The notes: a model not told the origin generated them from the sequence alone. Shown: positions 3,145-63,369, counted from the first letter of the stretch. The stretch is 64,000 nucleotides of DNA from Antedon mediterranea (GCF_964355755.1 NC_092673.1:16216948-16280947); one strand, 5' to 3'. Made by a program: numbers and translations.

Positions 3145-3264
3145 TATGGTGACACTATATTACATTCATATCTGGGGAATCGTGGATATACAACAACTAT
3201 ACCTACCTTAGAAATAGTGACGTGTCTCATTCAGCATGGGTCACCAGTAGCATTGCAAAATAAG
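3145..3264 (+). CDS. Ankyrin-repeat exon (40 aa)
   Basis: tttccag|YGDTILHSYLGNRGYTTTIPTLEIVTCLIQHGSPVALQNK|gtaatg; fits the GxTPLH...LEIVxxLIxHGA ankyrin consensus. Confidence 0.85.
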
Positions 3265-6200
3265 GTAATGTACAGGGATTTGCTAGTGTAATAAGCTAAC
3301 ATTATATAGATCTGCTGAAGTAAACCATTTAATGAGAGAAAAAAGAAAGCACATTAACAAAAATCAAATTTTTGAATTAGTAATTCGTTTGAACGGATTA
3401 ATAATCTGTTCAAACGAATTAGTAATCCGTTCAAACGAATTGCAACATATACAACAAGTGCCATTTAAAGTATATGTTGTAATTCGTTTAAACGAATTAC
3501 TAATTTGTTTAAACAGATTACTAATTCGTTCAAACGAATTACTAATTCGTTCAAACAGATTAGTAATCCGTTTAAACAAATTATTAATTTGTTTAAACAA
3601 ATTATTAATTTGTTTAAACGGATTACTAATTCGTTTGAACGAATTAGTAATCCGTTTAAACAAATTATTAATTCGTTTAAACAAATTAGTAATCCGTTTA
3701 AACAAATTAGTAATTCGTTTGAACGAATTAGTAATTCGTTTGAACAAATTAGTAATCCGTTTAAACAAATTAGTAATTCGTTTGAACGGATTAGTAATCC
3801 GTTTAAACGAATTACAACATATACTTTAAATGGCACTTGTTGTATATGTTGCAATTCGTTTGAACGGATTACTAATTCGTTTGAACAGATTATTAATCCG
3901 TTCAAACGAATTACTAATTCGTTAGAACGGATTACGTTCGAAAAACATACACTTAAAATGGCATTAATGGGCTTTCGTAACAAACCAACTAAAAAAATAA
4001 CTAAATAGTTATATATGATTTATGATAACTGATTTAAAGTGTACAGTTACCTATCATATAACATAAATCTTTAATTTTCTCAATGAAAAATCTTCATAGT
4101 AACCTACAATAATAATAATATCCTGGATTTATATAGCGCCTAATGTTGTTAAACCTCTAAGCGCTGAACATTTTCCTGATCAAACACCTATGGAAACATT
4201 CTCCCATAACGCAGCTAGTAATAAGCGCAAAGTTGTGTCTTGATCTAACCGGGTTCCCAATTATACACCTGGGTGGAGAGAGGCAAACGTAAAGTAAAGT
4301 ATCTTGCCTAAGGATACAAGCAATGCGGCGAGAGTTGGATTCGAAACTCGATCTCACGATCAGCAGTCCAACGTCCTTACAATGTTGTTAACATTTTTAT
4401 GACCTTAAAACAAATATAAATTGCTCATTATTACTGTATGTACTTTAAGATAACGATTGACAATGGTCTAATTAATTGTAAATATGAAATAAAATGGGAC
4501 ATGCTACATTTGACTATTAATAAACTAACAAATTAAAAAATGTTTATGTTAAAAATAGAATCTGATTTCAATAAAAAAGGATTATTAATTGTTAATAACC
4601 TGCTCCCGCCCTTTACTTACTTTACAATAAAATACTTCTGTAAGTCTTATCACATACAGTATGAATATGGCCTTAAAGAGATCCTTTTCCAAACAAACAT
4701 TTTGCACAAAAGGAAGAGAAATGTAAATAATGTTTAGTTTAGTAAAAATGTTTGAGCAATGCGATTTCAAAAAGAAATTTAATATGAAATTATTCTTTTC
4801 AAACAGTGCCGTATCTTATCTTATGACTTTTTGGAAAAAATGATTCTATTAAAGTTGCCAGTTAAAATTTGATATACTGGTAATTAAGTGCCCACAGATG
4901 GTTCTCGAATACATAAACTTTGGTAAATAACTGAATATTGTCTAAGTCGGTCTGTACACAAAGCAAATAAATATAGATATGATGGAATTTATGTAGTCAA
5001 ATATAATTGTCATCTTGAGAATTACCTTAATTTTGTTTATTGCATGGTATTGTTCACCAAATTCCTGTCTTGGTACATTTGATAATGGGATGGGATCGTC
5101 AATATAGTACACTGGTTTTCATTAGGTGTTAAAAATTAGTACTGAAAGTATTTACCAACTTTCTCTACCATTGGGTAAAAATTCTAAAAGTTGAACTTAA
5201 TTTACAGAAATTTCCCATTACGTAAATTTATATATAAATTCATTAAACTGCTTATTGGCCTCATATTTTTAATATCTCAACATTTGTTTGTACAATTTTA
5301 TGAAATATTTATTTTATAACGTTCAAATTTTGTGATTGCCATTGTACAGTAATTAGATTTTGATGATTACTTACATTAAGTAATAGGCTAACAATCACTA
5401 GATCTGATCCATGGTAATATATTATATTTTGTTTTCATTTATCAATAATGATAATTAGGATTTTATCACATTATTTAGCAGTAATTGTTGTTGTTTGTAT
5501 TAACAAAAAAAAAACCAATTTCACATAATGTCTGTTGTCAGTATTTATAAACTTCATGATTACGATTCCTTTCCAGAATGGGAACACTCCATTACATGAG
5601 TGTCTGTGGCTTGGAGACCCTACCTTAGAAATAGTGACGTGTCTCATTCAGCATGAGGCGCCAGTAGCATTGCAAAATAAGGTAAATGTATAGGGATTTG
5701 CTAGTGTAATAAGCTAACATTCTATAGATCTACTGAAGTAAACCATTTAATGAGAGAAAAAAGTAAGCACATTAACAAAAATCAAATTTGATTAAAACAA
5801 ACCAAATAAAAAATAACTAAATAGTTATATATGATTTATGATAACTGATTTAAAGTGTACAGTTACCTATCATATAACATAAATCTTTAATTTTCTTAAT
5901 GAACAAAAAAATCAATTTTTTTTATATATTCAGTTATTAATTAACAATTATTGACAATGGTCTAATATGAAATAAAATGCGACAACTACTAAACAATTAA
6001 AAATGTTTATGTTAAAAAAATTAATAGAATCTGATTTTAATAAAAAATAATTATTAATTAAAAACCTGCTCCCTCCCTTACCTTACAAAAAATGCTTCTG
6101 TCAGTCTATCCAGCTAATTATGAAAATGGCCTTAAAGAAATCTTTTTCCAACCTAGGGTTCTCACAGATGCTTCTCGAATACATGAACTTTGGTAAATAA

Positions 6201-9200
6201 CTGAAAATTGCACTGGACACCAGGCAAATAAATACAGATATGATGGAATTTATGTAGTCAAATATAATTGTCATCCTGAGAATTACCTTAATTTTGTTTA
6301 TTGCATGGTATTGTTCACCAAATTCCTGTCTTGGTACATTTGATGATGGGATGTTATCAGGTTTCATGATATGATATGATTTTCATCGAGGCAAATGGTT
6401 TAAATTAAATTTGTTATCGTTAATATCTAACTTAGCTTAATTATGATATTGGTTTCATTGGGTGTTAAAATTCAGTACTGAAAGTATGTACCAACTTTCT
6501 CTACCATTGAGTATAAATTCTAGAAGTTGCACTTAATTTACTAAAATTTCCCATTACCTAAATATATATGTAAATTCATTTAACTGCTTATTGGCTTCAT
6601 ATTGTTAACATCTAAACATTTGTTTGTACAATTTTATGAAATATGTATTTTATTAATGTTCAAATTTTGTGATTGATATTGTACAGTAAGTAGATTTTAA
6701 TGATTACTTACATTAAGTAATAGGCTAACAATCACTAGATCTGATCCATGGTAATATATTATATTTTGTTTTCATTTATCAATAATGATAATTAGAATTT
6801 TATCACATTATTTAGCAGTAATTGTTGTTGTTTGTATTTACAAAAAAAAACAATTTCACATAATGTCTGTTTGTCAGTATTTATAAGCTTCATGATTATC
6901 ATTCCTTTCCAGGATGGTAACACTCTATTACATTCATATCTGAGGAGTGGATATCTGAGGCGTGTATATACAACAACTATACTGGTACCTACCTTAGAAA
7001 TAGTGACGTATCTCATAATGTCTGTTGTCAGTATTTATAAACTTCATTATGATTCCTTTCCAGTCTGGTGACACTCTATTACATTCATATCTGAGGAGTG
7101 GAAATACACCTACCTTAGAAATAGTGACGTGTCTCATTCAGCATGGGACACCAGTAGCATTGCAAAATAAGGTAAATGTACAGGAATTTGCTAGTGTAAT
7201 AAGCTAACATTATATAGATCTGCTGAAGTAAACCATTTAATGAGAGAAAAAAGTAAGCACATTAACAAAAATCAAATTTTATTAAAACAAACCAAATAAA
7301 AAAATAACTAAATAGTTATATATGATTTATGATAACTGATTTAAAGTGTACAGTTACCTATCATATAATATAAATCTTTAATTTTCTTAATGAACAATAA
7401 AATCTATTTTTTTTATATATTCAGTTATTAATTAACAATTATTGATAATGGTCTAATTAATTGTAAATATGAAATAAAATGGGACAACTACTAAACAAAA
7501 ATTAATAGAATCTGATTTTAATAAAAAAAAATTATTAATTGATAATGATTATTAATTAATAATGTGCTCCTTCCCTTATCTTACAAAAAAAATTCTTCTG
7601 TCAGTCTATCTAGCTAATTATAAACATGGCCTTAAACTACATCTGGAGATCCTTTTCCAACCTAGGATCTTTTTGTGCAAACATTTTTTGATCTTCATCG
7701 AGGCAAATGATAAATTTGTTTTGATCGTCAATATTCATTCATTCATTCATTCATTCAGGCTTATTGCCTGACTTTATTTACTTTAGGCCTCTGGCCCCTA
7801 GTAATTAATAAAATAATAATTACATTGAAAAATAAAGCAATTTATGGTCACAAGATAAATGAATTAATTAACTTATAAGCATGATAAATATATTTAGATA
7901 GATTATCAATAATTATTGGATCCTGTGATGAAATTAAACGGCAGAATTTAAAAGTATTTGGATTTTCAAAAAATAAAGAAGGTATAAATTTTTTTCTGAT
8001 TTCCTTGTAACGAGAGCAAACTGTAACAAAATGATATTCACCTTCAACTTCATTTATATCACATATTTTACATAACCTATTGTTGCGCTCTATTCTTTTC
8101 CATCTTCCCTTTTCTACCTCTAGTTGAAGTGTGCCCGGTCTTTTAGTTGACTTAAAGCTCGCTTATATCTAGTATCAAGGGTCTGTAGTAAGTATCCATC
8201 TACTCCGAAATTGTTTTTGAACATTTTATAATATCTTAATTTTGAAGAAATATTTATGCTTTCATGAAAGGATTGGCGTTCCATATCGGTTAGCCTTTCT
8301 TTTATTTGATTAATTATATGAAATTTATCAAGGACATTATTTTGTGAAAACCATATGTTTCCATGACCAATAGAGCATAACATATGTTTTACATCGCTTA
8401 CCCAACAATTACTATTATTTTGCGCTTTATGAAGTTGAGATTTATAACATTTCTTCGCATATCTGTCCTCGTTCATATTTACTAGTCTTACCCAATAACG
8501 GATAACATTGAGTACACCTTCGATTGATAAAGAGAATCGTCTACATTCCCCTCTAATTGAAACATTTGTGGCTGATTTCCCGACCCCTAAAACATATCTA
8601 CAGAAATTATTTTGAATATCATCAATTTTGTTGTTGTTTAGTTTTCCCCATATTTCACTACCATACAGTATAATTGGGTTTATTTTAACATCAAATAAGT
8701 TAGTTCCAAATATTCACTAGTAAATGTCCATATTTCTGATATACTATATTTTTGAGTGAGAAAAGTGCTTTATTAGCCTGTGTATTATTTTGTTCTCTGG
8801 CCTTTTCCCAAATTCCTGAACAATCGAAAGTGACTCCAAGATATTTAAGAGATTTTACTATTTCAATTTCTTTACCAAGTTAATTCCACTTTTCGTAGTT
8901 CTTAAGTTTTCCATTTAAAAAAAATACTATTTTACTTTTGTCAATGTTAACTACCAATCCCTACCTATTACAATAATATGCTAATTTATTTAAAAGATCT
9001 TGTAATGAGTACACTGTATCACTGATTAAAACTAGATCATCTGCATACAGTAGGTGATTAATATTTATGTTATCAATTTTTATTTTGTTTCGATTTTCAG
9101 CAGTATGATAACTCAGTTATATCATTAATTATTAAATAATAATGAAGATAAAGGTGACCCTTGTTGTATTCCTACTTCACATTTAAAGGATTCTCCAATT

Positions 9201-51200: not shown

Positions 51201-54200
51201 CATTTTATCAGATATCACTGTCTAATGTTAGTATAGTAACAATTTTAAATTTGACTAGGGCAGTTATAGTAAAATAATGTACAGTAATCAATACAGTAGT
51301 CGATCCATTATGGATAAGTAACGATATTTAATTCGATTCAGTTTTTTGCATTTTATCAGATATCACTTTCTTATGTTAGTTAGGAAATAATGTGCAATAA
51401 TCAATACAGTAGTCGATCCATTGTGGATAAGTAACGATATTTAATTCGATTCAGTTTGTTGCATTTTATCAGATATCACTTTCTTATGTTAGTTAGTAAA
51501 TAATGTGCAATAATCAATACAGTAGTCGATCCATTGTGGATAAGTAACGATATTTAATTTGGTTCAGTATTATTAATATTAATTAATGTTGCCTTTTATC
51601 AGATATCACTGTCTAATGTTAGTACAGTAACAATTAAAAGTTTGACTTTGGTTCAGTTAAAGTAAAACAATGTGCAGTAATCGATACAGTAGTCGATCCA
51701 TTATGGACAAGTAACGATGTTTAAAATGTTGGCAGATTAAGTTATTTGTTGGTTTTTATCAGTCTAATTCACATGAAAACGGTTACTTTTTAAAAATTTA
51801 AATTGAGTTAAAAATACAGTAATAGTGTGCAATCGATAGTCTAATCTATACCTTACCAATTCTCTAAGTGATTATGTTGAATTCGAACTATTATTTACTT
51901 TACTATTATGTTATGTTATGTTAAAAAATGTTGCAAATTTAGATTTCGTTGCCTTTTTTTATATACACATATCACTAAGTGTCTAATTAAAACAATATTT
52001 AAATCGAGTTATAATAATAATGTACAATAATCGGTACCGGTGTCGATCATTATGAGTGTAATTATTTAGTTATCTGAAAAATATTCTTAAATTATATTAT
52101 TTTGATCGAAATAATGATTTTGATATAATATTGATTGTTCAGAATGTTACCCTAAAATACAAATCTGCTGTTGGTTATTTTAAGTGTTTTTGTTGGTGTT
52201 ATTTATTATTCCAAAATAAAGATATATTTCAATTATAAAATAAAAGATCGTGAATGTGTGGGCATTTGAGCTGCTGTGTACCGGATAAAGTGAAAAAAAA
52301 CATTTTTTCAAAAATGATTACACACTTCATGGATAAACCCATTTTGGGCGAGTTCCTAAGAGTTTGATGTTTGATGATTTGGCACAGGAAACAACTGCTC
52401 TCTTTATTTATTGTTTTAGCATTCTACTGTGCCGAGTCCGTATTTCTAACTCAGCTGAACGCCATTAGACGACATACGCGCCGAGTATATAGCCGAATAG
52501 GGGGAAACTGCGGACCTTTAGGGCTGCTGTCTGAGCTTATGTACAGGATAAAGTTGCTGTCATTGGTGTTTTTGTCATCCTCAATATATACTACTGCCAT
52601 TAAAAAAAGATTCAACCTTGTATTGCTTCACATGAATAAACCCATTTGGGCGTGGCCCTAAAATGTTGCTGTTTGGCGCCCCGTACAGGATAAAGTTGCT
52701 GTCATTGGTGATGTAATCATTAGTAGTCCACTGCGAATGATATCCAAAAAAGTTTATCCTTGTATCGCTTCACATAAATAAATGCATTTTTACCCCCCTA
52801 TGTTATGATCCCCACAGGCCCTATGTACAGGCTGTAACCCGGCAGCAATGTCAAATATTGTTTCTCGCCCTAATACGCACCTAACTACGTCATCAAACCT
52901 TTTGTATCTTTTCACATGAATAAATCTTCCGGGCGCCCGGTCTAACACTCCGTTGATACAAATTGAGGAAAACTCGGTATTTTCGCTGAAAAGTTAGGAG
53001 TCTTCCATTTGTTTTGGCCTCACGATCGATCGAAAAGTGGGTGAATTACATACGAAAAACAAAAATATCAATCCGCGCGCAATGCATTTTGCGATTTATA
53101 GCGGGCCGCTATAATTAATAGAATCGGCTTATTTTTCACATTTTTAATCATTTAAAGACGAAAAAAGTTATCGCAATAGGACCATATAGTATTAACATTA
53201 AATATAGTTTGAGATCTTAAATTAGATCTAAAAAATGTAGGGAAGGTGTCTTTAATGTCACCAAGTTGATTTAATGATAGATGATACCACACATACTGAC
53301 ATGAAATTATTAAAATATTAAAAAAAAATCGTATCTCTTCACAGATGAGCAAGACGATACAGCGACTACTACACAAGCCAGTGAACAAGGTATGATCCAT
53401 TGATGATACAGTCAAGTGTATCTATATATAAATTTACGTAAGGGCAAAATTAGGTAAATCGCGCGTTATTTCTAGAATGTTTACTCGATGGTATATAAAG
53501 TTGGTTCGTACTTTCGGTAATGATTTTAACCACCTGATGTAACCCTGTTTACTAATTAAATTGAGTTCGATAATTAGTTATTGACGATTAAAACGAATTT
53601 AGGTTCCACGATTTGCCCCAAATAGGGGTGTTTTTCGATCGTGGTATACACTGTCTAATGGATGTCCGTCTTGAAAAATACGAGGATGCTTCGCATTTTC
53701 CTATCTCCTCCTACGATAATTGTTTTTAATGGCTGAAAACCGGTTGAACAGCTCGAGTACAGCATCATAATGTTGAAGACAGGCCGATTTTCTTTAAAAA
53801 AATACTATTTTGATAGATTTAATATACGTTTATATAAATGTATTGATTTGCGATGAATGGAACATTCCAATCTCTGTTCCACAAGTGTCTATTCCCTCAG
53901 GCGTCGTAAAGGCAAGTACTGTATACTCATAACAGAAAAAATTCGATCCATTTTTTTTTTCAATCTGTGCTGCAGAGGTTGGATATACATTTTTTTAAAC
54001 GGATAATGAGCTAGCGTTTTCACTCGCCGTATATTATGTACAAATCGTTATTATTGCAGTTAATTCACCCTTCCCTCACTGGCATGAGTAGCGTTGTAAA
54101 ACCAGTAGAGGATAGGCCTACGGTACATCACATGCCCTAAACGCAGAACAACTTTGGTGGGTAGGGTAGGAACCAACTTAAGTATGAATTGGCTCTAAGA

Positions 54201-57200
54201 AACAATTGAAAACCATTAGGCCTACTAATTAAGTTGAGTTAGATAATTTAATATTTATTGACGATTAAATCGAATTTATGATTTTCCCCGAATAGAGGTG
54301 GTTTTCACAAATTGTATAATAATAATAATAATAGGATTTTTATAGCGCACATACCAATCAAGAGTGCTCAAGGCACATATAAACATATACACGTCGTAGT
54401 GATGTATCGTTACATGTACTGTACTATTTCAATCGACTAGGACGGTGATAGTTTCAACAAAGTATTACATCGCAATGTTTTACTGTGTTTAGTGGTATAT
54501 TATTTGTAAAACATGAAAACAATAATAATAATAATAACTGGTACTTGATATAGCGCATTATGCTGAAAGCCCTCAATGCGCTTTACAAAGACAGAACAAA
54601 TTTAGAAAATTACAAATTAAAAAGGTGGGTTTTGAGGAGAGATTGGAAGACACTGCACTGGTGGAAGTAGCCTGACGGATTTCTATAGGCAACACATTCC
54701 ATAGAGAAACGGATGTCGAAGAAAATGAACGATTTCCATAAAACTTAGTAGATGGAAGGATGAATTAATATATGGGCAAGAAGAGACTCAGATCTAGATC
54801 TCAGAGACCGCTTAGGAACATAAGGTTGAATAAGTTCAATTAATATTTCGTTACTAAATGAATAAAGAATATATTTAAAAATTGTTCCTCTTTGCACCCA
54901 TCCTCTTCCCCATCCCTCAACCCTAATGTTTCATACAAAGCACAAATTAAGTTTGTTTAAATTTGACTTAAGCAATTGGTCTCATTTTGTGACAGTTTCT
55001 CTTTCGGAAGTAATTCCCAGTGTGCTAATTTTAGTTGAGTACATAAATCACAGTGTCTATTTATTCGTTCCTGTAAACGACATGTATTATTGTCCTGCGG
55101 TACGTACATTTGAAATCGCCAGTTTTTTAACGCTGACATTATTATGTATTCGAGAACCATCTGTGGGCACGACCTAGATGGTACGCGAGCGTACAATCTA
55201 GTAAATACCAATTTACATTTTGTCAAACCAAAATTGAACTGTTCACCGCTGTTAAAAAACCAAGCATTATTATTATTAAACTATCTGTTTTTTTTGGCTT
55301 AACTCTTTCACTGCGTGTATCCGGTATTACTAAGTATAAACAAATGTCGTTGAACTGTGGTATACTCGGTATTACAGGGTATGAGAAAAATTATTATTTA
55401 TTTGTATTTGCCTATAATATAGCACCCTCTATAATTTTTTTGATAAACTTGAATACAGTATTTGCAATTCATTAAAACTAATTTTTAGCACAACATGCGC
55501 CCTCTATAGTTGTTAATATCGTCTTGAAATTTCTATTTCAACTTGCGCCCTCTATCACATGTTATTATTATTATAACCTTGTAATTAAAATTATTTTAAC
55601 CATGGAAAGTTATATTATTAACTACAATGACACATAAACATTCTCCAGTTACCAATTTACCCACCCCAATAGAACAATATCATGTTCATTCTGCAAAAAG
55701 AATTCTGAATTAGTCGTTAGTTTTTCTGTAATTTGATGATTTTGACCAACAATTTTATGCCAAATTTTTTATAAAATGATAAAAATAATTCAAATTTGTT
55801 TGATATTTGTATTCGTTACACATATCTTCATCAATATCCAGTGAGAAAACCATATTCCATAAAAATTATAGAAAAAATAGTTTTTATCATAAATTGATAA
55901 AAAAAACAGAAAATCCAAAATAGATGTAATGTCATTAATATGCAAATTAGCTTTTTTTTACTTCCAACCATAGACCAACCTTTTAAAATAATTAAAAAAT
56001 TATGTCATTTATTCTTTTTTGCACATTTCTTAAATGCATATATGCACATAGCTGGGACTAATGCTTCAATGAAGTAAATGTTTGTGTATATTAAATAATT
56101 AATAATTTATTGCCATCTGCCACAACTTCCCATCTTATTAAAATAATACTAATGACAATGGCAGTGAAATAAGAAATAATACTTGGACAAAACATGCAAA
56201 ATTCTATTATTTCACAAGATTCCAATAAAAACTACTTTTTTCACAGATGTGCAAGATGGTTCAGTGACCTCTGCATTACCACAGTCTGATATCCAAGGCA
56301 GTCAACAAGGTAGGATCCACTGGTTGATTCCAGAGGTTAATCATCTATTAGTGGTTACATTTTAAAATAAAACTTAATAGACATATTATAATAATAACTG
56401 TAGCACATTTTGAGTTATTCAAACTGTATACATTTTAGATGAAAATGTATAGTTATGTTACTCTCCAAAATGAACATAAAATGTATAGTTATGTTACTCT
56501 CCAAAATGAACATAAAATGTATAGTTATGTTACTCTCCAAAATGAACATAAAATGTATAGTTATGTTACTCTCCAAAATGAACATAAAATGTATAGTTAT
56601 GTTACTCTCCAAAATGAACATAAAATGTATAGTTATGTTACTCTCCAAAATGAAAATGATGAACATAAACAGTCATTTATTTGTGTGTCACTCATACAAA
56701 ATAAAAAGCTTTGTCATTAATGTGTAATGTATAACTGTCTTTTTTGTATTTTTGTTGAACAGAATTAACAAAGCTATTAGCATCAGATTCACCAGTTACT
56801 GTTAATGAGGAATTAAAAACACAAATGAAGAAAGTGATGATTGCGGAACAGGAAAGAAAACTTGAAGCAGAGAGCGGTGAGTTAAGGATCATAAATTAAT
56901 TTACTTTTTATTTCGTCACACTCAACAGTGACACAAGTCAAGTCAATTGCAAAGTTCAACAATAGAAAATGATGAACATATTTAAACATAATTATATAAA
57001 CAAAATCCAAAGCAGTCTTAAGCTGGCCTTTAATATACTGTTCAACATACACATAACTGTCTTTTCTGGATGTTTTTATTGACCAGAAGTGACAAAGCAA
57101 TTACCATCGGATTCATCAGATACTCTTAGTGATGAATTTCAAACACAAGTAGTGGAACAGGAAACTAAACCTGAACCAGAGAGTGGTGAGTCTCATAAAA

Positions 57201-59455
57201 TATTAGTTGTATTATTATGGTTAAACTAACTTTAAATGTGATATTATAGAATGGATTTTAGCTACATTTTTTTTTTATTTCAACATTTATAAAAAAAAGA
57301 ATGTCTTTAAACAGAATTAGAAAAAAATACTAAATTCATACATGTAAACGATTGATAAGGTAAATGACTTATTTAACTAATCTTTAAAACAACATGTCTT
57401 TTATTATTAGTGAAGAATAAAAGCTGATACACTGAACAATATCTGCATAAATACTGTCATGATATTTATATATAAGTTGCTGTGACACTTACAGGCCACC
57501 GTACTTTGATCACACAAACAAAAGATATTCATTATGGTCGGCAATGTATTATCAACAAACTTAAAAATAAGAGATAGTTCTCTATCCATTGTAAATAGAA
57601 CAGTTTATATTTCATCAAAGAACGTATTGTTAATCAATCTTATTTTGATATGCTTGATCTATAAATTCAACAACAGAATAATTATGATTGGTCAAAGCTC
57701 TCTGTGAAGCTGTCAACATCTTGAAATTAGCATGCAACATACAAATACATTGCAAAATAATAACAAATTGATATTAATAATCAAATTAGGGTGTGGTACA
57801 TTGTGTAGGTCTATGGTACAGGGCTCAGGTGGCAGGCCTTTTAGGGTGTGGTACATTGTATAGGTCCATGGTACAGGGCTCAGGTGGCAGGCCTTTACTT
57901 TACTTGCCAACTAATGTTTATTTTTTTCTTGTATCAATTTTCTAGTTTTTTATTGTAATATGGTCCCCTAATGCTATTTTTTGTAATATATTTATAGACC
58001 ATAAATCAATTTTTAAAAATGAGGTTCTGCACAGTGAATTTATGGTTTTGTGGTTGATTGTGTTGAGTAATGAATAATCAAATGCTTGTGATATTTAATT
58101 CCTAATACTGATACTCATTTCAGATCTGCAGTCGCCAGAAAATGACAGGTAAGTAGGTACTGTATAATGAGTGTATCACAGTATCTATACTGTTTATTTA
58201 TACTCTCCAATACCATAGAGATAGACCAACACCCTGCTAGTTAATTGTATGCCCTGAGATGATAGTCTGGAAGGGATATTATTACTATCACTTGTGTGTC
58301 TATCAGTTCATTTGTATATATTAATAACATAACCTATTAATACAACCAAAGTTCTACCATAAAAATAGTGTTGAAACAATTATACACAAAATCAAGAATT
58401 ATAACAAACATCAAAAGAACTTTTAAACCCAAATAATAATAATGAAACAATCCTGATTTTATATAGAATTACATTCTGCATAAACTTAACGGAGGATGAC
58501 GGACCTTTTGTCCTACCAATATTTTCAATTTCAGTAAGATATATGCCACACTTCCGTTTTGGCCGACAGACTCCTATATTTATACTTGTCTCCTTATGCT
58601 CCTGGTTTTATATTCTCCCGTATTACAAAGATAACTGAACTTAATGTGTTGCTTTCTGCAATAAAATATAAAAAAAAGAAGCTCAAAACACATACAAATT
58701 TATGATATTTAAGTCATAATTTATTGATCCCCTTATTGAAGGGGATTCTTTTCGCATAGCCATCATGGTACCAATTGCTCCTTGCATTTCCTAATTTTGA
58801 TAATAATACTGTAAAAAAGGGAGTGGGGAGGGGTTGCTAGAACCATAAAACCCTCCTGCTTACGAGTCTGTTATCCTTATTTTAGGGAGTGGGGAGGGGT
58901 TGCTAGAACCATAAAACCCTCCTGCTTACGAGTCTGAATCCTTATTATAGGGAGTGGGGAGGGTTTGCTAGACCATAAAACCCTCCTTCTTATGAGTCTG
59001 TTATCCTTATTATAGGGAGTGGGGAGGGTTTGCTAGACCATAAACCCTCCTTCTTACGAGTCTGTTATCCTTATTATAGGGAGTGGGGAGGGTTTGCTAG
59101 ACCATAAAACCCTCCTGCTTACGAGTCTGTTATCCTTATTATAGGAAGTGGGGAGGGTTTGCTAGAACCATACTTACTTACGAGTCTGTTATCCTTATTA
59201 TAGGGAGTGGGGAGGGTTTGCTAGAACCATACTTACTTACGAGTCTGTTATCCTTATTATAGGGAGTGGGGAGGGTTTGCTAGAACCATACTTACTTACG
59301 AGTCTGTTATCCTTATTATAGGGAGTGGGGAGGGTTTGCTAAAACCATAAAACCCTCCTGCTTACGAGTCTGTTATCTTTATTATAGTTTTACTAATGTG
59401 TACATATACATTTTTATTTTTAGCCTGAAAGAAAGCATACAGACATTTGTCAAAG
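3145..59455 (+). CDS. Multi-exon gene (partial at both ends): ankyrin-repeat array - linker - ZU5 - UPA-like - tandem DED-like - linkers
   Basis: 22 exons with AG/GT boundaries and matching phases, no internal stops: 3145-3264, 5577-5681, 7064-7171, 12084-12191, 17978-18082, 19465-19572, 24485-24592, 30395-30499 (all phase 0-0), 31422-31506 (0-1), 33781-33873, 43571-43648 (1-1), 44581-45092 (1-0), 45429-45563 (0-0), 46117-46258 (0-1), 46703-46732, 47721-48236, 53345-53389, 56247-56309, 56763-56876, 57087-57185 (1-1), 58124-58148 (1-2), 59424-59455 (2-1). Joining into one transcript is inferred from phase compatibility. Confidence 0.75.
3372..3979. mobile_element. Foldback/MITE-like insertion built from 21-bp tandem repeats in inverted orientation
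   Basis: Unit about attagtaattcgtttgaacga; the arm containing caacatatacaacaagtgccatttaaagtatatgttg (about 3442-3480) is inverted at about 3815-3852; right end gggctttcgta; absent from paralogous units (empty site about 5790). Confidence 0.7.
4107..4380 (-). mobile_element. tRNA-derived SINE
   Basis: B-box-like gtttcgaatcc on the minus strand (about 4337-4347), conserved core tacacctgggtggagagaggc...cttgcc, (ATT)n tail; absent from paralogous units. Confidence 0.7.
5577..5681 (+). CDS. Ankyrin-repeat exon (35 aa)
   Basis: tttccag|NGNTPLHECLWLGDPTLEIVTCLIQHEAPVALQNK|gtaaat. Confidence 0.85.
6913..7016 (+). pseudogene. Truncated ankyrin exon (acceptor intact, 3' part and donor deleted); duplicate at 19314-19417
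   Basis: tttccag|DGNTLLHSYLRSGYLRRVYTTTILVPTLEIVTYLI then runs directly into the intron sequence that precedes the next exon (cataatgtctgttgtcag). Confidence 0.75.
7064..7171 (+). CDS. Ankyrin-repeat exon (36 aa)
   Basis: tttccag|SGDTLLHSYLRSGNTPTLEIVTCLIQHGTPVALQNK|gtaaat. Confidence 0.85.
9509..10891. mobile_element. Composite Helentron-type non-autonomous (HINE/DINE-1-like) insertion: two related units flanking tRNA-Val-derived DNA; duplicate at about 21910-23292
   Basis: Starts aacaagcacgaatgtgc (hairpin) with subterminal tactcgggg; ends actcgggtaccccgagtaaaa; splits the LINE ORF (LGKVF|LYIISNRL) in a T-run without TSD; 202-bp internal tandem duplication 10263-10667. Confidence 0.65.
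9922..9992 (-). tRNA. tRNA-Val(AAC)-like pseudogene; partial second copy about 10213-10268; duplicates at 22323-22393 and about 22614-22669
   Basis: Reverse complement GGTTTCGTAGTGTAGTGGTGGTCAAGTCTGCTTAACACGCAGAAGGTCCCGGTTCGAGCCCTGACGAAACC: acceptor stem, AAC anticodon loop, T-loop; D-stem broken; followed by a T-run. Confidence 0.75.
12084..12191 (+). CDS. Ankyrin-repeat exon (36 aa)
   Basis: tttccag|DGNTPLQSYLWSVYTPTLEIVTCLIQHGAPLALQNK|gtaaat. Confidence 0.85.
12754..16683 (-). mobile_element. CR1-clade LINE (ORF1 3' part plus APE-RT ORF2), copy 1 with nonsense and indel lesions
   Basis: CGDIHPNPGP, LTETWL, GDMN, DHSPV endonuclease motifs; GVPQGSVLGP, YADD RT motifs; poly(A) tail; flanking direct repeat TAATTCTCGTT (12743-12753, 16684-16694). 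Confidence 0.95.
16980..17375 (-). mobile_element. 3' fragment of the same LINE as 7734-11610, at the paralogous insertion site; duplicate about 29401-29794
   Basis: Same gatcgtcaatat(tcat)n junction and RLCKICDKNEVEDEYHF C-terminus. Confidence 0.85.
17376..17756 (+). mobile_element. 3' end of another CR1/L2-group LINE; duplicate about 29795-30173
   Basis: ...GKRTFVYRSTKLWNSLP...FKSSL then a (TAAA)n tail. Confidence 0.7.
17978..18082 (+). CDS. Ankyrin-repeat exon (35 aa), chimeric duplication-junction exon
   Basis: tttccag|YRDTPLHSYLKRTAPTLEIVTCLIQHEAPVALQNK|gtaaat; 5' half like exon 30395, 3' half and downstream intron like exon 5577. Confidence 0.85.
19465..19572 (+). CDS. Ankyrin-repeat exon (36 aa), copy of 7064-7171
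   Basis: Same sequence at +12401 offset. Confidence 0.8.
24485..24592 (+). CDS. Ankyrin-repeat exon (36 aa), copy of 12084-12191
   Basis: Same sequence at +12401 offset. Confidence 0.8.
25155..29105 (-). mobile_element. CR1-clade LINE, copy 2 (982-aa ORF2 segment 25265-28213)
   Basis: Duplicate of 12754-16683 without the 20-bp deletion and the CAA>TAA stop, but interrupted near the endonuclease N-terminus. Confidence 0.95.
30395..30499 (+). CDS. Ankyrin-repeat exon (35 aa)
   Basis: tttccag|YGDTPLHSYLKRTAPTLEIVTCLDQHGAPVGLQNK|gtaatg. Confidence 0.85.
31422..31506 (+). CDS. Ankyrin C-terminal capping repeat exon
   Basis: ttttaatag|DGNTLVSLLESNRRIERERKTEILNFLE(g)|gtaagt; GNT...EILxFL pattern; phase 0 to 1 bridges the array to the downstream phase-1 exons. 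Confidence 0.75.
33781..33873 (+). CDS. Linker exon (DLPS...KPES family)
   Basis: tttttag|DLPSTVDEQFQTQFQKHTSDKQKTKLLKPES|gtgagt. Confidence 0.7.
35857..36410 (+). mobile_element. 5' part of a non-autonomous Helitron (same family as 53421 and 61912)
   Basis: A|TCTATATATAAATTTACGTAAGGGC start; about 550 bp similar to the other copies; 3' end not found. Confidence 0.7.
37640..41140 (-). CDS. pol: Pol polyprotein: protease, integrase, reverse transcriptase, RNase H
   Basis: LRDSGCT (protease); H..GHMG...CKEC, DIVGPL, DQGTNF, ERFHGTLK (integrase); YIDD (RT); TDAS...EKECL...TDHQAL...ADGLSR (RNase H). Confidence 0.97.
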   Translation of the reverse strand: MVAKGKTSDTKKGPNVKDGLRCEGIKSDRPQVVMDSVENKMEKCIIPGKLEGQDITMLRDSGCTKSAVKESLVPNKCYLPGKWVTLRGIGGDITVPLAEVAIESKIVTGKVIVAVIEGLQRDMLLGHDLDQNCGETMAKEMFVLTREQARIENDVRIQDEMILLGKDSNFKPIEEPPKETNVQMLKTVVNDNKVNKTKCLDDMNGTEMNNLFDENEDKAKDKTVKRKTYEQQHKLNLTKQELIKLQTKDDSLKGVFDRVVPIEEIGQHRVCFFMRQGILMRNWSSIKDKNNQVEQIVLPTQCRQGVLHLGHNVPFAGHMGVEKTKSRILNQFYWPGIFKDVVVYCKVCKECQKVEKGKSKRKHTLIPLPIISTPFKRIAIDIVGPLSRTSRNNKYMLTIIDYATRYPDAIPLPNVRAETVARALIEVFTRVGLPEEIVHDQGTNFMSSIMQSICSMLGINQLKTTVYHPQSNGLVERFHGTLKNMIRTLTVKQRKNWDNYIPPFLFAYREVPSKATGHSPFKLLYGREVRGPLSLLKSNWVEDEETSTDVIKYMLDIREKMEELMKDANVNKLEQQEIMSHNYNKNAIDREFVEGDKVLIFLPVGNSKLDSKWQGPFTVTKKVNDVNYEIYIGGRRKEKQILHVNMLKRWYDKVEISKDGYYVVTNVQSIEEVDLNETVHDNELDSEIDIGLSYHQSQTWRDVNVSSNLNDTQTKQLTELLKYQQNVFSDVPGRTHLVTHEIKTNGEMPIRHRAYRTPQALKGKLKEELDSMLAMGIIEPTVSAYAASIIALEKGQNQIRMVTYFRSLNKTTQFDPYVMPRIDEMLDEVSSAIYITTLDLTKGFYQVPLDPKTKDKSAFITQFGQYCYNVLPFGMQNSSSTFQRLMDKVLQGTEGYAKAYIDDICIYSQTWKDHIFHLNDVLERLSSAGLTAKPLKCKIAYAQVEFLGHKIGNGEIRPMIDKVEAVEKFPRPLSKKQVRSFLGLTGYYRKFVQNYADIAKPLIDLTLKSKSNTVKWNEQCENAFVTLKKRLTDDNVLKAPNFDKMFILQTDASNYGIGAVLSQIDGEGNDYPIVYLSRKLSVHEQRYSVPEKECLSFVWAINKLKYYLYGCEFQVHTDHQALRWMDSMKGANVRLMRWALFLQGYKFKVIYKKGSLNGNADGLSRA
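41285..42220 (-). CDS. gag: Gag of the gypsy element (stops at an in-frame TAA before the CCHC knuckle)
   Basis: FRTFEHLAEATGW...YDTLKKAILEKY..SAETYRFKFR capsid motifs; CFNCKEKGHKIGDC follows in the same frame after the stop. Confidence 0.9.
   Translation of the reverse strand: MTTLRSGKNIDKTMSDKDTREDMVDQVNEMYDNMARDIDLPEIPGGMPKDMMLEYFRMKFEAEAENKKLEYQQDIELRKIESQERVKMMELENRSSYSNARNIVDEMKVKVPTLKESDDIDIYFRTFEHLAEATGWDKNTWSARLAPELSGKARTAYASLTVKECVDYDTLKKAILEKYDVSAETYRFKFRNSNRVKDMSIREWLNELSHYLKCWMKCANVKEDDAAGIIEMIIMEQALDKMPEDLRLYLRDKQVNKSYDMAMIADDYIANRGGRGYWNAVNSENKPTYYKGQENSKPKNSTTQNNPGARQ
43571..43648 (+). CDS. Linker exon (DLPS...KPES family)
   Basis: ttttttag|DLPSLVSEQFEKLMVEEQKTKLKPVI|gtgagt; paralog of 33781. 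Confidence 0.7.
44581..45092 (+). CDS. ZU5 domain exon with HFS motif, start of UPA-like domain
   Basis: VGSTGGTL...IKLQIQPGAI...IISPIVKCGPEGTSFNKPISLSFPH...ITLIHFSFY are ZU5 hallmark motifs (UNC5/PIDD1/ankyrin type); acceptor ctgcag ends 44580, donor gtaatt at 45093. Confidence 0.9.
45429..46258 (+). CDS. Two exons (45429-45563, 46117-46258) of a UPA-like beta-rich domain
   Basis: TIKEEHSEIGEKPLITPV...ITVAVSQQEWKV and TVTAEYLWRG...LKATVSLSQ; position directly after ZU5; UPA identity inferred. Confidence 0.65.
45742..45872. mobile_element. Short MITE remnant
   Basis: Terminal inverted ctctgtcta...tagacagag with internal 22-bp repeats (atggtagtgatatg). Confidence 0.45.
46703..46732 (+). CDS. 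30-bp linker microexon
   Basis: ttgttatag|CDVETSGPNP|gtatgt, phase 1-1. Confidence 0.6.
46750..46970 (-). mobile_element. 5S rRNA-derived SINE (SINE3-like) or 5S pseudogene with attached body
   Basis: Reverse complement of 46872-46970 (TACGGCCTTATCATGTTGAAAC...CTGATCACCAAAGTTAAGCAACG...CTTGGATGGGAGACCGTCTGGGAG) matches 5S rRNA including the A and C boxes. Confidence 0.75.
47253..47406 (+). pseudogene. Decayed linker exon made of 18-bp repeats (GVSSGT-like)
   Basis: Acceptor ttttttag; G/S/T/P repeat frame is one base off phase 1; donor position reads ataaac rather than gtaaac. Confidence 0.45.
47721..48236 (+). CDS. Tandem death effector domain-like (DED-DED) exon
   Basis: Helical 172-aa exon: FNKLNYDLSE...DYFNELSEKGYIKPTDVGLL...VVAQY, then LSPYRKRL...IWDVTFELE; resembles the paired DEDs of the caspase-8/c-FLIP prodomain; ttgcag acceptor, gtatgt donor. 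Confidence 0.7.
48865..52944 (+). mobile_element. Internally deleted Academ-like DNA transposon with 1.2-1.3 kb TIRs
   Basis: TAGACC...GGTCTA termini, 3-bp TSD ACA, arms 48865-50181 and 51721-52944; central remnant FPPCEITITQHLLRANYVSIMW...DPLNYGW...PKWF (about 50230-50640), like the C-terminus of Academ proteins. Confidence 0.75.
50835..51720. repeat. Tandem repeat (about 120-150 bp unit, about 7 copies) inside the Academ-like element
   Basis: Recurring aataatgtgcaataatcaatacagtagtcgatccattgtggataagtaacgatatttaatt. Confidence 0.9.
53345..59455 (+). CDS. Six short linker exons after the DEDs (53345-53389, 56247-56309, 56763-56876, 57087-57185, 58124-58148, 59424-59455)
   Basis: DEQDDTATTTQASEQ / DVQDGSVTSALPQSDIQGSQQ / ELTKLLASDSPV...EQERKLEAES / EVTKQLPSDSS...EQETKPEPES / DLQSPEND / SLKESIQTFVK, each with canonical splice sites and compatible phase. 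Confidence 0.65.
53421..55201 (+). mobile_element. Non-autonomous Helitron (complete)
   Basis: A|TC...CTAG|T boundaries, subterminal hairpin gtacgc-ga-gcgtac (55181-55194), no TSD; similar to 61912-63245. Confidence 0.85.
54520..54840 (-). mobile_element. L2-type LINE 3' fragment nested in the Helitron
   Basis: ELIQPYVPKRSLRS...YGNRSFS...LWNVLP...LKTHLF with an (ATT)n tail; absent from the 62-63 kb Helitron copy. Confidence 0.8.
56442..56654. repeat. 36-bp minisatellite, about 6 copies
   Basis: aaaatgtatagttatgttactctccaaaatgaacat repeated. Confidence 0.95.
58817..59387. repeat. G-rich minisatellite, about 58-66 bp unit, about 9 copies
   Basis: agggagtggggagggtttgctagaaccata...ttacgagtctgttatccttattat repeated. 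Confidence 0.95.
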
Positions 59456-59543
59456 GTAATTTCCTTAGTCTTATGTTGGTGAGTTAAGGATCATAAATGA
59501 ATTTACTTTTTATTTTATTTCACCACCACACAAGTCAAGTCAG

Positions 59544-60165
59544 TGTAATATAACGATATACTTTTATAATTAAGAAATTGACCTTTGTATCGGAATTCAA
59601 ATAAGTTCACAAACTTGACCCAGAAAGTCCAGAGGAGAGTTTGTCCAGATGTTTTAATGACCATTTAGTTTACAATCGAATCCCTAAAGAATAACTTTGT
59701 GACTGTTCCCATCATAAAACAATTAGATATTGACAGTTTTTAGCAGAGATTGGACAGGGCCAATTCATCATTGTAACCTCCCCAGATAAGATCAATCACT
59801 CCCACTTAAACACCTCTGGATCAACTTAGGACCAATCGTTACCCTCACAGATTACGTAGTGACATATGCAAATGAACCGAAGCCAATATACCCCCAAGTT
59901 TCAGAAGAGCCCAGACACACCTTACAGCCACCTCACGGAGCACACACCTTACAGCCACCTCACGGAGCACACACCTTACAGCCACTTCTTCAGAAGCAGA
60001 CCTACACACTTCACACCTCACTGACAGCATCACTGATCCTCCGTTCCTTATCTATACTTATAGTTGTATATTGTACTGAAGTATTATACTGAATAAACAA
60101 TATGTGTTACGACAGTTAAGCGAGTAAGAGTCTTCATTAGTACCTCAACACAACATTATATTACA
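59544..60165 (+). mobile_element. Solo LTR (622 bp)
   Basis: TGTAATATAA...TTATATTACA inverted ends, 4-bp TSD TCAG, AATAAA at about 60092, empty paralogous site at about 56940; internal 30-bp tandem repeat. Confidence 0.8.
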
Positions 60166-60269
60166 TCAGTTACAACGTTGAACAATAGAAAATGATCAAT
60201 AGACATTTATTTAAACATATATAACTCAATCAAAATATCTTATGTCTTAAGCTGCTATATTAGCTATTA

Positions 60270-63200: not shown

Positions 63201-63365
63201 AGTACGACCTAGATGGTACGCGAGCGAAGCGAGCGTACCATCTATATTTAATATTTTATGTGTTGTACTGTATGTATGTTTTATCGAGGGCCCTGAATGA
63301 TCAGTTCTATTAGGAACTGGATAGGCTACCCTCAGTAAATATGGTAATAAATAAATAAATAAAGA
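60270..63365 (+). mobile_element. 5'-truncated CR1/L2-group LINE (RT ORF 60323-61786); 3' UTR interrupted by a Helitron
   Basis: NYRPISVLP, FIDLRKAFDLV, GIPQGSNLGPLLF, FADD; 3' stem-loop and (TAAA)n tail at about 63285-63365. Confidence 0.9.
61912..63245 (+). mobile_element. Non-autonomous Helitron nested in the LINE 3' UTR
   Basis: A|TCTATATATAAATTTACG start; terminal hairpin ggtacgc...gcgtacc then CTAT (degenerate CTRR). Confidence 0.8.
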
Positions 63366-63369
63366 CAAA

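What the first reader, a model, noticed from the sequence alone, without database searches (positions are those of the whole stretch)
3145..59455. Hidden PIDD-like death-fold gene: variable ankyrin sensor - ZU5(HFS) - UPA - tandem DED
Seen: 22 phase-compatible exons spell an uninterrupted frame of about 945 codons, ANK x8 + C-cap / linkers / ZU5 / UPA-like / DED-DED / linkers, across 56 kb of TE-filled introns. Established: PIDD1 is LRR-ZU5-ZU5-UPA-DD and UNC5CL is ZU5-UPA-DD, both death-fold signalling scaffolds; tandem DEDs recruit caspase-8/FADD-type partners; canonical ankyrins have divergent repeats, two ZU5 domains and a DD. Inference: a single ZU5 combined with near-identical expanding ANK repeats and internal tandem DEDs fits neither family, and looks like a lineage-specific intracellular immune or cell-death receptor with an ankyrin recognition module.
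Basis: partly seen in the sequence, partly recalled or inferred. Interest (0 to 1): 0.88.

Follow-up and report, generated by a model that had tools for sequence, protein, structure and literature searches.

The report
Mosaic ankyrin death-effector gene, feather star
In what is very likely a feather star, a chain of exons spells variable ankyrin repeats, a ZU5-UPA domain with the His-Phe-Ser motif that related proteins use to cut themselves, and a pair of death-effector domains predicted to fold like those of caspase-8; they likely form one protein, probably membrane-anchored, that would sense a target and trigger cell-death or immune signalling, and its parts appear to have been swapped among related genes.

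Summary
22 GT-AG exons (3145-59455) give 945 codons with no stop, and the frame is open at both ends. ZU5 is certain (Pfam 3e-19). The 47721-48236 exon is predicted to fold as a tandem DED (pLDDT 95; caspase-8 tDED, Z 14.6). UPA is supported through paralogs. All named homologs but one weak metagenome hit are crinoid. New here: (1) a paralog with a 97%-identical tail ends in a transmembrane helix, so the protein is probably tail-anchored; (2) the cleavage nucleophile is Ser/Cys/Thr in 9 of 9 paralog ZU5 domains; (3) each module has a different nearest relative, and the same ankyrin head sits on a ROC GTPase elsewhere, which points to module swapping at phase-1 introns; (4) a 12.4-kb tandem duplication breaks inside an ankyrin exon and makes a chimeric repeat. 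Not shown: one transcript from ankyrin to ZU5 (no annotated homolog has both), cleavage, ligand, partner, immune role, positive selection. It likely works like NLRP1/CARD8/PIDD1 but is a member of none. The scan noted ankyrin-ZU5-UPA-death-domain genes earlier in sea urchins (unchecked). Verdict: new variant of a known kind, interest 0.58.

The parts
3145..3264 (+). ANK exon 1 (40 aa, phase 0-0); an N-cap and at least one more repeat probably lie upstream of the window
   Evidence: Pfam Ank E 0.009; 100% to residues 70-109 of RefSeq model P0078, which has an N-cap and one repeat before it; that N-cap is not in the window
5577..5681 (+). ANK exon 2
   Evidence: Pfam Ank E 7.5e-6, above the curated cut-off; follows exon 1 in P0078
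7064..7171 (+). ANK exon 3
   Evidence: Ank E 5.5e-4
12084..12191 (+). ANK exon 4
   Evidence: Ank E 0.008
17978..18082 (+). ANK exon 5, a chimera: 5' part like exon 8, 3' part like exon 2; the duplication breakpoint lies at 18020-18046 in the invariant core
   Evidence: 35 consecutive informative sites follow exon 8's region, then the following sites follow exon 2's region (the only exception is the last gap column)
19465..19572 (+). ANK exon 6, letter-identical to exon 3
24485..24592 (+). ANK exon 7, letter-identical to exon 4
30395..30499 (+). ANK exon 8
   Evidence: Ank E 0.013
31422..31506 (+). ankyrin C-cap exon (phase 0-1)
   Evidence: identical to the C-cap of P0080; joined GT..AG to 33781 in one contig of run X5, 26 letters on the short side
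33781..33873 (+). linker exon 1 (phase 1-1); the switch point: followed by linker 2 and ZU5 in P0012, by ROC in P0080
43571..43648 (+). linker exon 2 (phase 1-1)
   Evidence: 89% to P0012 residues 43-70
44581..45092 (+). ZU5 domain and start of UPA
   Evidence: Pfam ZU5 E 3e-19; UNC5B cytoplasmic domain E 2.6e-7
44952..44960 (+). His-Phe-Ser, predicted autoproteolysis site before the last ZU5 strand
   Evidence: Ser/Cys/Thr after Phe in 9 of 9 complete paralog ZU5 domains; loop position in the model of paralog P0013
45429..45563 (+). UPA exon
   Evidence: no Pfam hit on its own; aligns with paralog UPA regions; paralog P0013 has Pfam UPA E 6.5e-5, below the cut-off, and its model matches the NLRP1 FIIND chain, Z 10.6, rmsd 2.9, 112 aligned
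46117..46258 (+). UPA exon (end of UPA, phase 0-1)
   Evidence: as above; 80% to P0009
46703..46732 (+). 30-nt linker exon (phase 1-1)
   Evidence: matches P0077
   Evidence: present in P0077; X5 contig 15 joins 47349 to 47718, which equals a GT..AG cut 47353-47720; frame open
47721..48236 (+). tandem death effector domain, one phase 1-1 exon
   Evidence: AlphaFold2 pLDDT 95.4, pTM 0.88; caspase-8 tDED 4zbw Z 14.6, rmsd 2.6, 151 aligned; 45 of 64 homologs have a DED hit at E<=0.01
53345..53389 (+). tail exon, least supported of the 22
   Evidence: frame and splice sites only; resembles 56247-56309; absent from P0025
56247..56309 (+). tail exon
   Evidence: part of a 108 of 111 identical match to P0025
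56763..56876 (+). tail exon, homologous to linker exons 1 and 2
57087..57185 (+). tail exon, homologous to linker exons 1 and 2
58124..58148 (+). 25-nt tail exon
59424..59455 (+). last exon in the window; in P0025 it is followed by a 21-residue hydrophobic C-terminus whose exon is not in the window
   Evidence: (Kyte-Doolittle 2.89 in P0025; no matching exon in 59456-64000)
5621..30437 (.). 12.4-kb tandem duplication (about 5621-18020 and 18022-30437) that adds three ANK exons and copies of two LINE-type elements
   Evidence: 99.57% identity, 20 mismatches, 9 gap openings; about 0.13% substitutions in the core
37088..43220 (-). recent LTR retrotransposon in the intron between linker exons 1 and 2 (not part of the protein)
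   Evidence: identical 450-bp LTRs, 5-bp target-site duplication, SCAN-bearing gag and integrase before RT

Best explanation
These exons likely make one crinoid protein, ankyrin array - linkers - ZU5 - UPA - tandem DED - acidic tail - probable C-terminal membrane anchor, which is predicted to cut itself at His-Phe|Ser and would act as an NLRP1/CARD8/PIDD1-style trigger for DED-based cell-death or immune signalling. Shown by sequence or tools: the open exon chain, the ZU5 domain, the motif, the predicted caspase-8-like tDED fold, crinoid paralogs that join linker-ZU5-UPA-tDED and tDED-tail-TM, and a tandem duplication that breaks inside an ankyrin exon. Inferred steps: (1) one transcript (about 0.75). 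(2) Autoproteolysis leaves an N-terminal ANK-ZU5 piece held non-covalently on a membrane-bound UPA-tDED piece (about 0.7 for cleavage, 0.65 for the anchor). (3) The variable beta-turn/first-helix face of the repeats binds a foreign or modified protein, or is attacked by one. Removal or displacement of the N-piece frees UPA-tDED to oligomerise on the membrane and nucleate DED chains with a caspase-8/FADD-type partner or with the tDED-bearing NLR and ROCO proteins of the same family (about 0.6). (4) The family appears to diversify in the germ line in two ways: unequal crossing-over between one-repeat ankyrin exons (phase 0-0), and exchange of whole modules at phase-1 introns.
For: Exon chain and chance control. 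ZU5. tDED fold: 9 of the top 11 VIA rows are tandem DEDs of caspase-8, cFLIP or vFLIP, and the other two are single DEDs; every Foldseek row shown is a caspase-8, cFLIP or vFLIP DED structure, though none reaches E<=0.001. ZU5-UPA supramodule in the paralog model: UNC5b E 2.3e-17, NLRP1 and CARD8 complexes E 8.8e-7 and 2.8e-4. Nucleophile limited to S/C/T in 9 of 9 paralog ZU5s, the three residues that can start the acyl shift (PMC3210808, passages); non-cleaving UNC5B has Leu-Gly at the aligned Phe-Ser. Junction support from overlapping RefSeq models: ANK-ANK (P0078), ANK-C-cap-linker 1 (P0080), linker 1-linker 2-ZU5-UPA-tDED (P0012), tDED-tail-TM (P0025). C-terminal hydrophobic helices also in P0013 and P0014. 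Joins at predicted splice sites in run X5. Immune context: 11 of 64 tDED homologs carry NACHT; others carry ROC-COR, URGCP-GTPase, TRIM-NHL, PARP14-like or kinase domains. Variation sits on the binding face: 11 of 30 sites vary in codons 1-10 against 11 of 215 in the upstream introns. Mosaicism: the window's tDED groups with ROCO tDEDs (100/97; AU p 0.006 against grouping with P0012/P0013), and its ZU5-UPA groups with P0010/P0077/P0011 (96/99; AU p 0.0006).
Against: No annotated protein joins ANK and ZU5: 0 of 9 ZU5-exon homologs carry ANK and 0 of 7 ANK homologs carry ZU5, while 3 of those 7 carry ROC. The exon 8 to C-cap join was not among the 8 joints listed. The C-cap to linker 1 join is one contig with 26 letters on its short side, laid at 88% likeness, and could come from the ANK-ROC paralog, whose C-cap is identical. 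X5 is only guessed to be RNA. pN/pS among five repeats is about 1.1 (5' part) and 1.0 (3' part), so positive selection is not shown; the downstream intron (8 of 61) varies as much as the 3' exon half (8 of 63). 0 of 64 tDED homologs has a caspase domain, so the partner is unknown. The TM exon is outside the window, and 945 codons hold no hydrophobic helix (maximum 1.14). The paralog models are automatic predictions in a repeat-rich cluster and may themselves be chimeric or split. The clades in the tDED AU test were named after a first tree had been seen.
Confidence: 0.5

Rival explanations
1. Same single protein, but it is a brake or scaffold rather than a sensor: a cFLIP/vFLIP-like tDED without enzyme that caps DED chains of NLR or ROCO relatives, with the ankyrins as ordinary docking sites.
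For: cFLIP and vFLIP tDEDs score within about 3 Z units of caspase-8 (Z 11.5-12.9). No catalytic domain in the model. No excess of amino-acid changes among repeats.
Against: Repeat variation is concentrated on the binding face relative to the upstream introns. A conserved cleavage nucleophile fits a release switch. UPA promotes death-fold filaments in NLRP1/CARD8 (PMC11874512, passages).
Confidence: 0.2
2. Two transcription units, or alternative products: the ANK-C-cap-linker 1 head is expressed alone or splices to a ROC-COR module outside the window, while linker-ZU5-UPA-tDED-tail is a separate gene.
For: RefSeq keeps ANK-only (P0078, P0079, P0082) and ZU5-tDED (P0012, P0013) models apart, and the one model with this C-cap continues into ROC (P0080). 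P0078 matches exons 1-2 and then stops. X5 contig 15 carries about 480 nt of intron before 47281, which could be an internal start.
Against: No ROC sequence in the window. Linker exon 1 has a phase-1 acceptor and no start codon, and in P0012 it runs straight into linker 2 and ZU5. The C-cap exon has no stop. Phases agree at all 21 junctions.
Confidence: 0.2
3. A young, neutrally drifting or dying copy from a turbulent gene cluster, with the repeat count inflated by an assembly that placed two haplotypes end to end.
For: The two 12.4-kb blocks are 99.6% identical. pN/pS about 1. A donor-less pseudo-exon at 6913, an Ile-to-Asp change in repeat 8, and a fresh LTR element in an intron.
Against: All 22-23 exons and splice sites are intact. 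The blocks differ by about 0.13% in the core with multi-base indels, less than the 0.3-0.4% seen between the window and two contigs of run X1 (3 of 1076, 2 of 454; a thin basis). The breakpoint is a clean in-frame switch inside an exon. An artefact would lower the repeat count from 8 to 5 but leave the architecture unchanged.
Confidence: 0.1

Closest known systems
NLRP1 / CARD8 (FIIND = ZU5-UPA, then CARD)
   Same: A single ZU5, then UPA, then a death fold; cleavage motif before the last ZU5 strand; N-terminal piece predicted to restrain a UPA-death-fold piece (PMC3210808, PMC7483925, passages; structural matches).
   Different: Ankyrin array instead of NACHT-LRR or a disordered N-terminus; tandem DED instead of CARD; HFS rather than SFS; no Pfam FIIND hit on the exon; probable tail anchor.
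PIDD1 (LRR-ZU5-ZU5-UPA-DD)
   Same: Repeat domain, then ZU5 with His-Phe-Ser, then UPA and a death fold (PMC9162469, passages).
   Different: ANK not LRR; one ZU5 not two; tDED not DD; long acidic tail and probable TM; member of an expanded mosaic family rather than a single conserved gene.
UNC5 cytoplasmic module / UNC5CL (TM-ZU5-UPA-DD)
   Same: Best sequence and structure match for ZU5-UPA; UNC5CL keeps autoproteolysis and is membrane-bound (PMC10084454, passage).
   Different: The TM is predicted at the C-terminus, not before ZU5; ankyrin head; tDED.
Canonical ankyrins (24 ANK - ZU5-ZU5-UPA-DD)
   Same: ANK repeats N-terminal to ZU5-UPA and a death fold.
   Different: Near-identical, recently duplicated 35-40-residue repeats; one ZU5 with a cleavage motif; tDED.
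Caspase-8 / cFLIP / vFLIP tandem DED
   Same: Predicted fold over the whole 171-residue exon.
   Different: Internal position, no caspase domain, 12-19% identity; belongs to a crinoid tDED family fused to NACHT-LRR, ROC-COR and others.
Repeat-shuffling candidate receptors: brown algal LRR-ROCO genes; fungal NLRs with highly conserved ANK repeats
   Same: One exon per repeat with a uniform phase (PMC11378527, passages); near-identical ANK repeats varying on the concave face (PMC4986451, passages).
   Different: Here the head sits on ZU5-UPA-tDED (or on ROC in paralogs), in an animal; positive selection, shown in those systems, is not shown here.

Membership tests
PIDD1 | N-terminal leucine-rich repeats | tested here: not met
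   the N-terminal exons in the window are ankyrin repeats; the closest model begins with an ankyrin N-cap (P0078)
PIDD1 | two ZU5 domains | tested here: not met
   one ZU5 locus in the window
PIDD1 | His-Phe-Ser motif at the end of ZU5 | tested here: met
   44952-44960; motif only, cleavage not tested
PIDD1 | C-terminal death domain (DD) | tested here: not met
   tandem DED Z 14.6 against best DD Z 8.8
PIDD1 | RAIDD/caspase-2 recruitment | not testable with these tools
   needs bench work
NLRP1/CARD8 (FIIND proteins) | ZU5-UPA supramodule followed by a death fold | tested here: met
   (UPA shown on paralog P0013)
NLRP1/CARD8 (FIIND proteins) | Pfam FIIND (PF13553) sequence signature | tested here: inconclusive
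   no hit on single exons or paralogs; the joined domain was not scanned; FIIND clusters appear at ranks 2-20 by Atlas features, scores under 0.9
NLRP1/CARD8 (FIIND proteins) | C-terminal CARD | tested here: not met
   CARD rows score Z 7.6 or less against 14.6 for tDED
NLRP1/CARD8 (FIIND proteins) | autoproteolysis, DPP9 binding, functional degradation | not testable with these tools
   needs bench work
UNC5 / UNC5CL | single ZU5 then UPA | tested here: met
UNC5 / UNC5CL | transmembrane helix N-terminal of ZU5 | tested here: not met
   no 19-residue window above 1.14 Kyte-Doolittle in 945 codons
UNC5 / UNC5CL | C-terminal DD | tested here: not met
Canonical ankyrins | 24 ankyrin repeats | tested here: inconclusive
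   8 in the window, start upstream; the closest model P0078 implies about one more plus an N-cap
Canonical ankyrins | ZU5-ZU5-UPA-DD | tested here: not met
   one ZU5, tDED
Tandem-DED proteins (caspase-8/10, cFLIP, vFLIP) | two packed DED folds | tested here: met
   (predicted model)
Tandem-DED proteins (caspase-8/10, cFLIP, vFLIP) | N-terminal position with a caspase(-like) domain behind, or standing alone | tested here: not met
   internal, followed by an acidic tail
Tandem-DED proteins (caspase-8/10, cFLIP, vFLIP) | binding to FADD or caspase-8 DEDs | not tested
   no crinoid FADD or caspase-8 sequence was in hand
ROCO proteins | ROC-COR tandem | tested here: not met
   no ROC or COR match in the window; paralogs with the same head or tDED do have it

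The most novel reading that the evidence does not exclude
Crinoids run a combinatorial family of intracellular receptors built from interchangeable exon modules: variable ankyrin heads, a choice of switch (self-cleaving ZU5-UPA or ROC-COR GTPase), a tandem-DED output and an optional tail anchor. This gene is a membrane-anchored, DED-based counterpart of the NLRP1/CARD8 functional-degradation tripwire, caught while adding a chimeric recognition repeat by unequal crossing-over.
Probability: 0.3. Interest if true: 0.8.

Novelty: new variant of a known kind. Interest (0 to 1): 0.58.

Why it matters
The self-cleaving ZU5-UPA-death-fold switch is known from a few mammalian proteins (NLRP1, CARD8, PIDD1, UNC5CL) with CARD or DD outputs. 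A version wired to tandem DEDs, probably held on a membrane by its tail and fed by a fast-changing ankyrin head, would show the same logic rebuilt for a caspase-8-type pathway in the earliest-branching echinoderm class, whose immunity is barely studied. The locus also exposes two testable routes to receptor diversity: repeat gain with chimera formation inside an exon, and module exchange at phase-1 introns between ZU5-type and ROCO-type genes. New domain mixes are common in marine invertebrate immune families (PMC8195603, PMC2575513), which tempers the surprise. The RefSeq models found here hold only parts of this architecture, so the family is easy to miss.

Tried and rejected
Whole genome: none is held for this window, so the first and last exons and the paralog count could not be read. 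Sequencing runs: no RNA holder listed; X5 is only guessed to be RNA. X9 was laid in the hope that it was RNA and showed no splice join. In one search the joint table was cut (397 rows not shown), so the absence of other joins there means nothing. Pfam on the DED exon and the two UPA exons alone: no relevant hit. phmmer of the DED exon against PDB sequences: only MCM4 at E 0.36-0.56. The profile search gave caspase-8 at E 0.026-0.08, mixed with unrelated rows, too weak alone. The two DED halves show no sequence similarity to each other. Complex prediction of ZU5 with tDED (a test of UNC5b-like masking): no verdict, score 0.08 against a mark of 0.34, alignments not used; it is neither for nor against. 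Positive selection: pN/pS about 1, so the claim was dropped. A second tDED exon that could own the tail exons, and a ROC exon in the window: none found. The TM exon in 59456-64000: not found. The Atlas was closed for the window's own sequence; with paralogs it gave ZU5-UPA-DD, FIIND and DTHD1-type clusters and no row with ANK+ZU5+DED, but it holds only clusters of 50 or more. Literature: searches listed no paper on an ANK-ZU5-UPA-DED or crinoid tDED family; I judged most rows by listing only. Four architecture strings were absent from 13 supplement files of PMC8195603 (at least one file was cut when stored, and other spellings were not tried). PMC4258472 and PMC3307986 are not held; subscription papers were not searched. 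Earlier-findings look-ups by sequence and place, and two of three by words, were empty.

Full report
1. Is it there? The window is AT-rich animal DNA with LINE and LTR elements. The two long exons are the only open ones among 141 and 180 AG..GT stretches of their lengths; short exons are often open by chance and need homology. There is no start or stop codon, so both ends lie outside the window. A 23rd exon, 47281-47352, keeps the frame (969 codons) and occurs in a paralog model.

2. Domains. Five of the six distinct ankyrin exons were scanned and hit Pfam Ank at E 7.5e-6 to 0.013; one passes the curated cut-off. The 44581 exon is ZU5 (E 3e-19), and its best solved relative is the UNC5B cytoplasmic domain. 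The UPA exons give no Pfam hit alone, but they align with paralogs. An AlphaFold2 model of paralog P0013 (mean pLDDT 73, pTM 0.40) matches UNC5b at E 2.3e-17 and, over residues 162-289, the NLRP1 FIIND chain at Z 10.6. The 47721 exon has no Pfam DED hit, yet 45 of its 64 homologs have one at E<=0.01 and 12 of 64 pass the cut-off. Folded with 33 homologs it gives pLDDT 95.4. The best of 48,161 chains is caspase-8 tDED (Z 14.6, rmsd 2.6, 151 aligned), followed by other tDEDs, then single DEDs and PYDs; DD and CARD rows are at 8.8 or below. Foldseek agrees but reaches only E 1.1e-3.

3. Organism and family. All 7 longer homologs of the DED exon, all 9 of the ZU5 exon and 6 of 7 of the ankyrin profile are Antedon mediterranea RefSeq models. 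Of the 64 tDED homologs, 20 were named: 18 Antedon and 2 Anneissia japonica; the other 44 were not looked up. P0078 matches exons 1-2 at 69 of 70 residues, so the window is very likely Antedon or a close relative. The tDED family is fused to NACHT (11 of 64), ROC-COR, URGCP GTPase, TRIM-NHL, kinase, PARP14-like and ubiquitin domains, and to a caspase domain in 0 of 64.

4. One gene? No single annotated protein has the full architecture (0 of 9 and 0 of 7). Overlapping models cover nearly every junction: P0078 (ANK-ANK), P0080 (ANK-C-cap-linker 1), P0012 (linker 1-linker 2-ZU5-UPA-tDED), P0077 (the small exons before tDED) and P0025 (tDED-tail). Only 53345-53389 has no such support. In run X5, which the tool guesses to be RNA, one contig joins 31506 to 33781 across GT..AG (depth 110, 26 letters on the short side, 88% likeness). 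Another contig of 1103 letters joins 47352 to 47721 and stops at 48236, the predicted donor, with 41 letters left over (29 differences). These are one run, may come from paralogs, and do not include the exon 8 to C-cap join. The window has no ROC exon and no second tDED exon, so here linker 1 can lead only to linker 2 and ZU5, and the tail can attach only to this tDED, unless splicing leaves the window. I put one transcript at about 0.75.

5. (a) Tail anchor: P0025 is identical at 108 of 111 residues to the last five exons and then ends in a hydrophobic helix; P0013 and P0014 also end in one. The matching exon is not in the window. (b) The cleavage motif is constrained: all 9 complete paralog ZU5 domains have Phe followed by Ser, Cys or Thr (4 HFS, 3 HFC, 1 HFT, 1 SFT). 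In the P0013 model the motif lies in the loop before the last ZU5 strand, at modest confidence (pLDDT about 60). That is where CARD8 and PIDD cut, and those are the three residues able to start the acyl shift (PMC3210808, passages). (c) Mosaicism: the head and C-cap are closest to an ANK-ROC model (P0080), linkers 1-2 to P0012, ZU5-UPA to P0010/P0077/P0011, tDED to ROCO proteins P0001/P0006, and the tail to P0025. In a 54-row tree the window's tDED nests with ROCO tDEDs at 100/97 (rows kept were hits under 1e-14 covering 130 or more residues, with one of the four P0017 copies; P0002 was labelled COR by eye from its likeness to P0083). AU tests reject grouping it with P0012/P0013 for tDED (p 0.006, 15 selected rows; group named after the first tree) and for ZU5-UPA (p 0.0006, 10 rows). 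Every module boundary from the C-cap to the tail is a phase-1 intron, the classic condition for exon shuffling (recalled). Chimeric automatic models could inflate this picture. (d) Repeat gain: 5621-18020 and 18022-30437 are 99.57% identical. The switch from exon-8-like to exon-2-like sequence falls at 18020-18046, inside the invariant core of exon 5, which is therefore a new chimeric repeat. A haplotype artefact is not excluded.

6. Variable face. Differences among repeats concentrate in the beta-turn, the first helix and the loop after it, which also varies in length. Among four non-chimeric exons, 11 of 30 sites vary in codons 1-10 against 11 of 215 in the upstream introns (Fisher p 4e-6; sequences not independent); the 3' exon half has 8 of 63 and the downstream intron 8 of 61. 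pN/pS over five exons is 1.1 and 1.0, so diversifying selection is suggested by location only. The same surface is under selection in fungal NLR ankyrin arrays (PMC4986451, passages).

7. Mechanism. By analogy with NLRP1/CARD8 (PMC7483925, passages), PIDD1 (PMC9162469, passages) and UPA-promoted filaments (PMC11874512, passages), the protein would cut itself, keep ANK-ZU5 docked on a membrane-held UPA-tDED piece, and release that piece when the head binds, is displaced or is destroyed, to nucleate DED chains. Anatomy is shown or predicted by tools; cleavage, anchor, ligand, partner and outcome are inferred. Overall 0.5. Rivals: a FLIP-like brake (0.2), separate genes (0.2), a drifting copy or partial assembly artefact (0.1).

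8. Known or new. It fails defining features of PIDD1, NLRP1/CARD8, UNC5/UNC5CL, ankyrins and ROCOs, but probably works like the first two. Ten full-text searches listed no description of it. I read passages of 11 papers (PMC8195603, PMC3210808, PMC2575513, PMC11874512, PMC11463336, PMC11378527, PMC9162469, PMC8260672, PMC10084454, PMC7483925, PMC4986451), searched the supplements of PMC8195603, and saw PMC4358367 only as a listing; I read no paper whole. PMC8195603 shows that lineage-specific mixes of DED, ankyrin and ZU5/FIIND domains are common in sessile marine invertebrates. Unchecked notes of this scan report ankyrin-ZU5-UPA-DD genes in sea urchins. The general design is thus probably echinoderm-wide; the tDED output, intact nucleophile, tail anchor and exchange with ROCO genes are what is distinctive here. 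Novelty: new variant of a known kind. Interest 0.58.

Noticed in passing
window 37088-43220 (-): Young LTR retrotransposon with identical 450-bp LTRs, a 5-bp target-site duplication, a SCAN-bearing gag frame (315 aa) and a 1214-aa pol frame with integrase before RT, the order of Gmr1-type Gypsy elements (name recalled)..
   Followed up: partly
window 6913-7016 and 19314-19417; about 30632-30653: Donor-less ankyrin pseudo-exon just before exons 3 and 6, and a stray 3' ankyrin fragment after exon 8: debris of repeat turnover.
   Followed up: partly
window 33781, 43571, 56763, 57087 and the donor at 59479: Linker exons on both sides of ZU5-UPA-tDED are homologous to each other and share a donor context, which would give recombination anchors that flank the module.
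   Followed up: partly
proteins P0017, P0019, P0020, P0027, P0036, P0052, P0075, P0007: A large crinoid tandem-DED family, mostly below Pfam's cut-off, fused to ROC (four copies in P0017), ubiquitin, TRIM-NHL, URGCP GTPase, NACHT-LRR, kinase-MAM, NB-ARC-TPR and PARP14-like domains; not found described in my searches.
   Followed up: partly
proteins P0080, P0081, P0083, P0011: ANK-ROC(-COR)(-DED) and ROC-COR-DED-ZU5-UPA-tDED models that share modules with this gene: a crinoid ROCO expansion.
   Followed up: partly
window 1-2280: Unrelated sequence before the first ankyrin intron, with short minus-strand frames and a GC-rich patch near 1980-2130; possibly the end of a DNA transposon inserted in the gene's upstream intron.
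   Followed up: no
window 3370-3965, 50810-51760, 56440-56660, 58818-59390: Intronic tandem repeat arrays.
   Followed up: no
window 48865-50218 and 51684-52944: Inverted pair about 1.3 kb long (89% identical) around an internal region with a 113-aa open frame: probably a non-autonomous DNA transposon.
   Followed up: no
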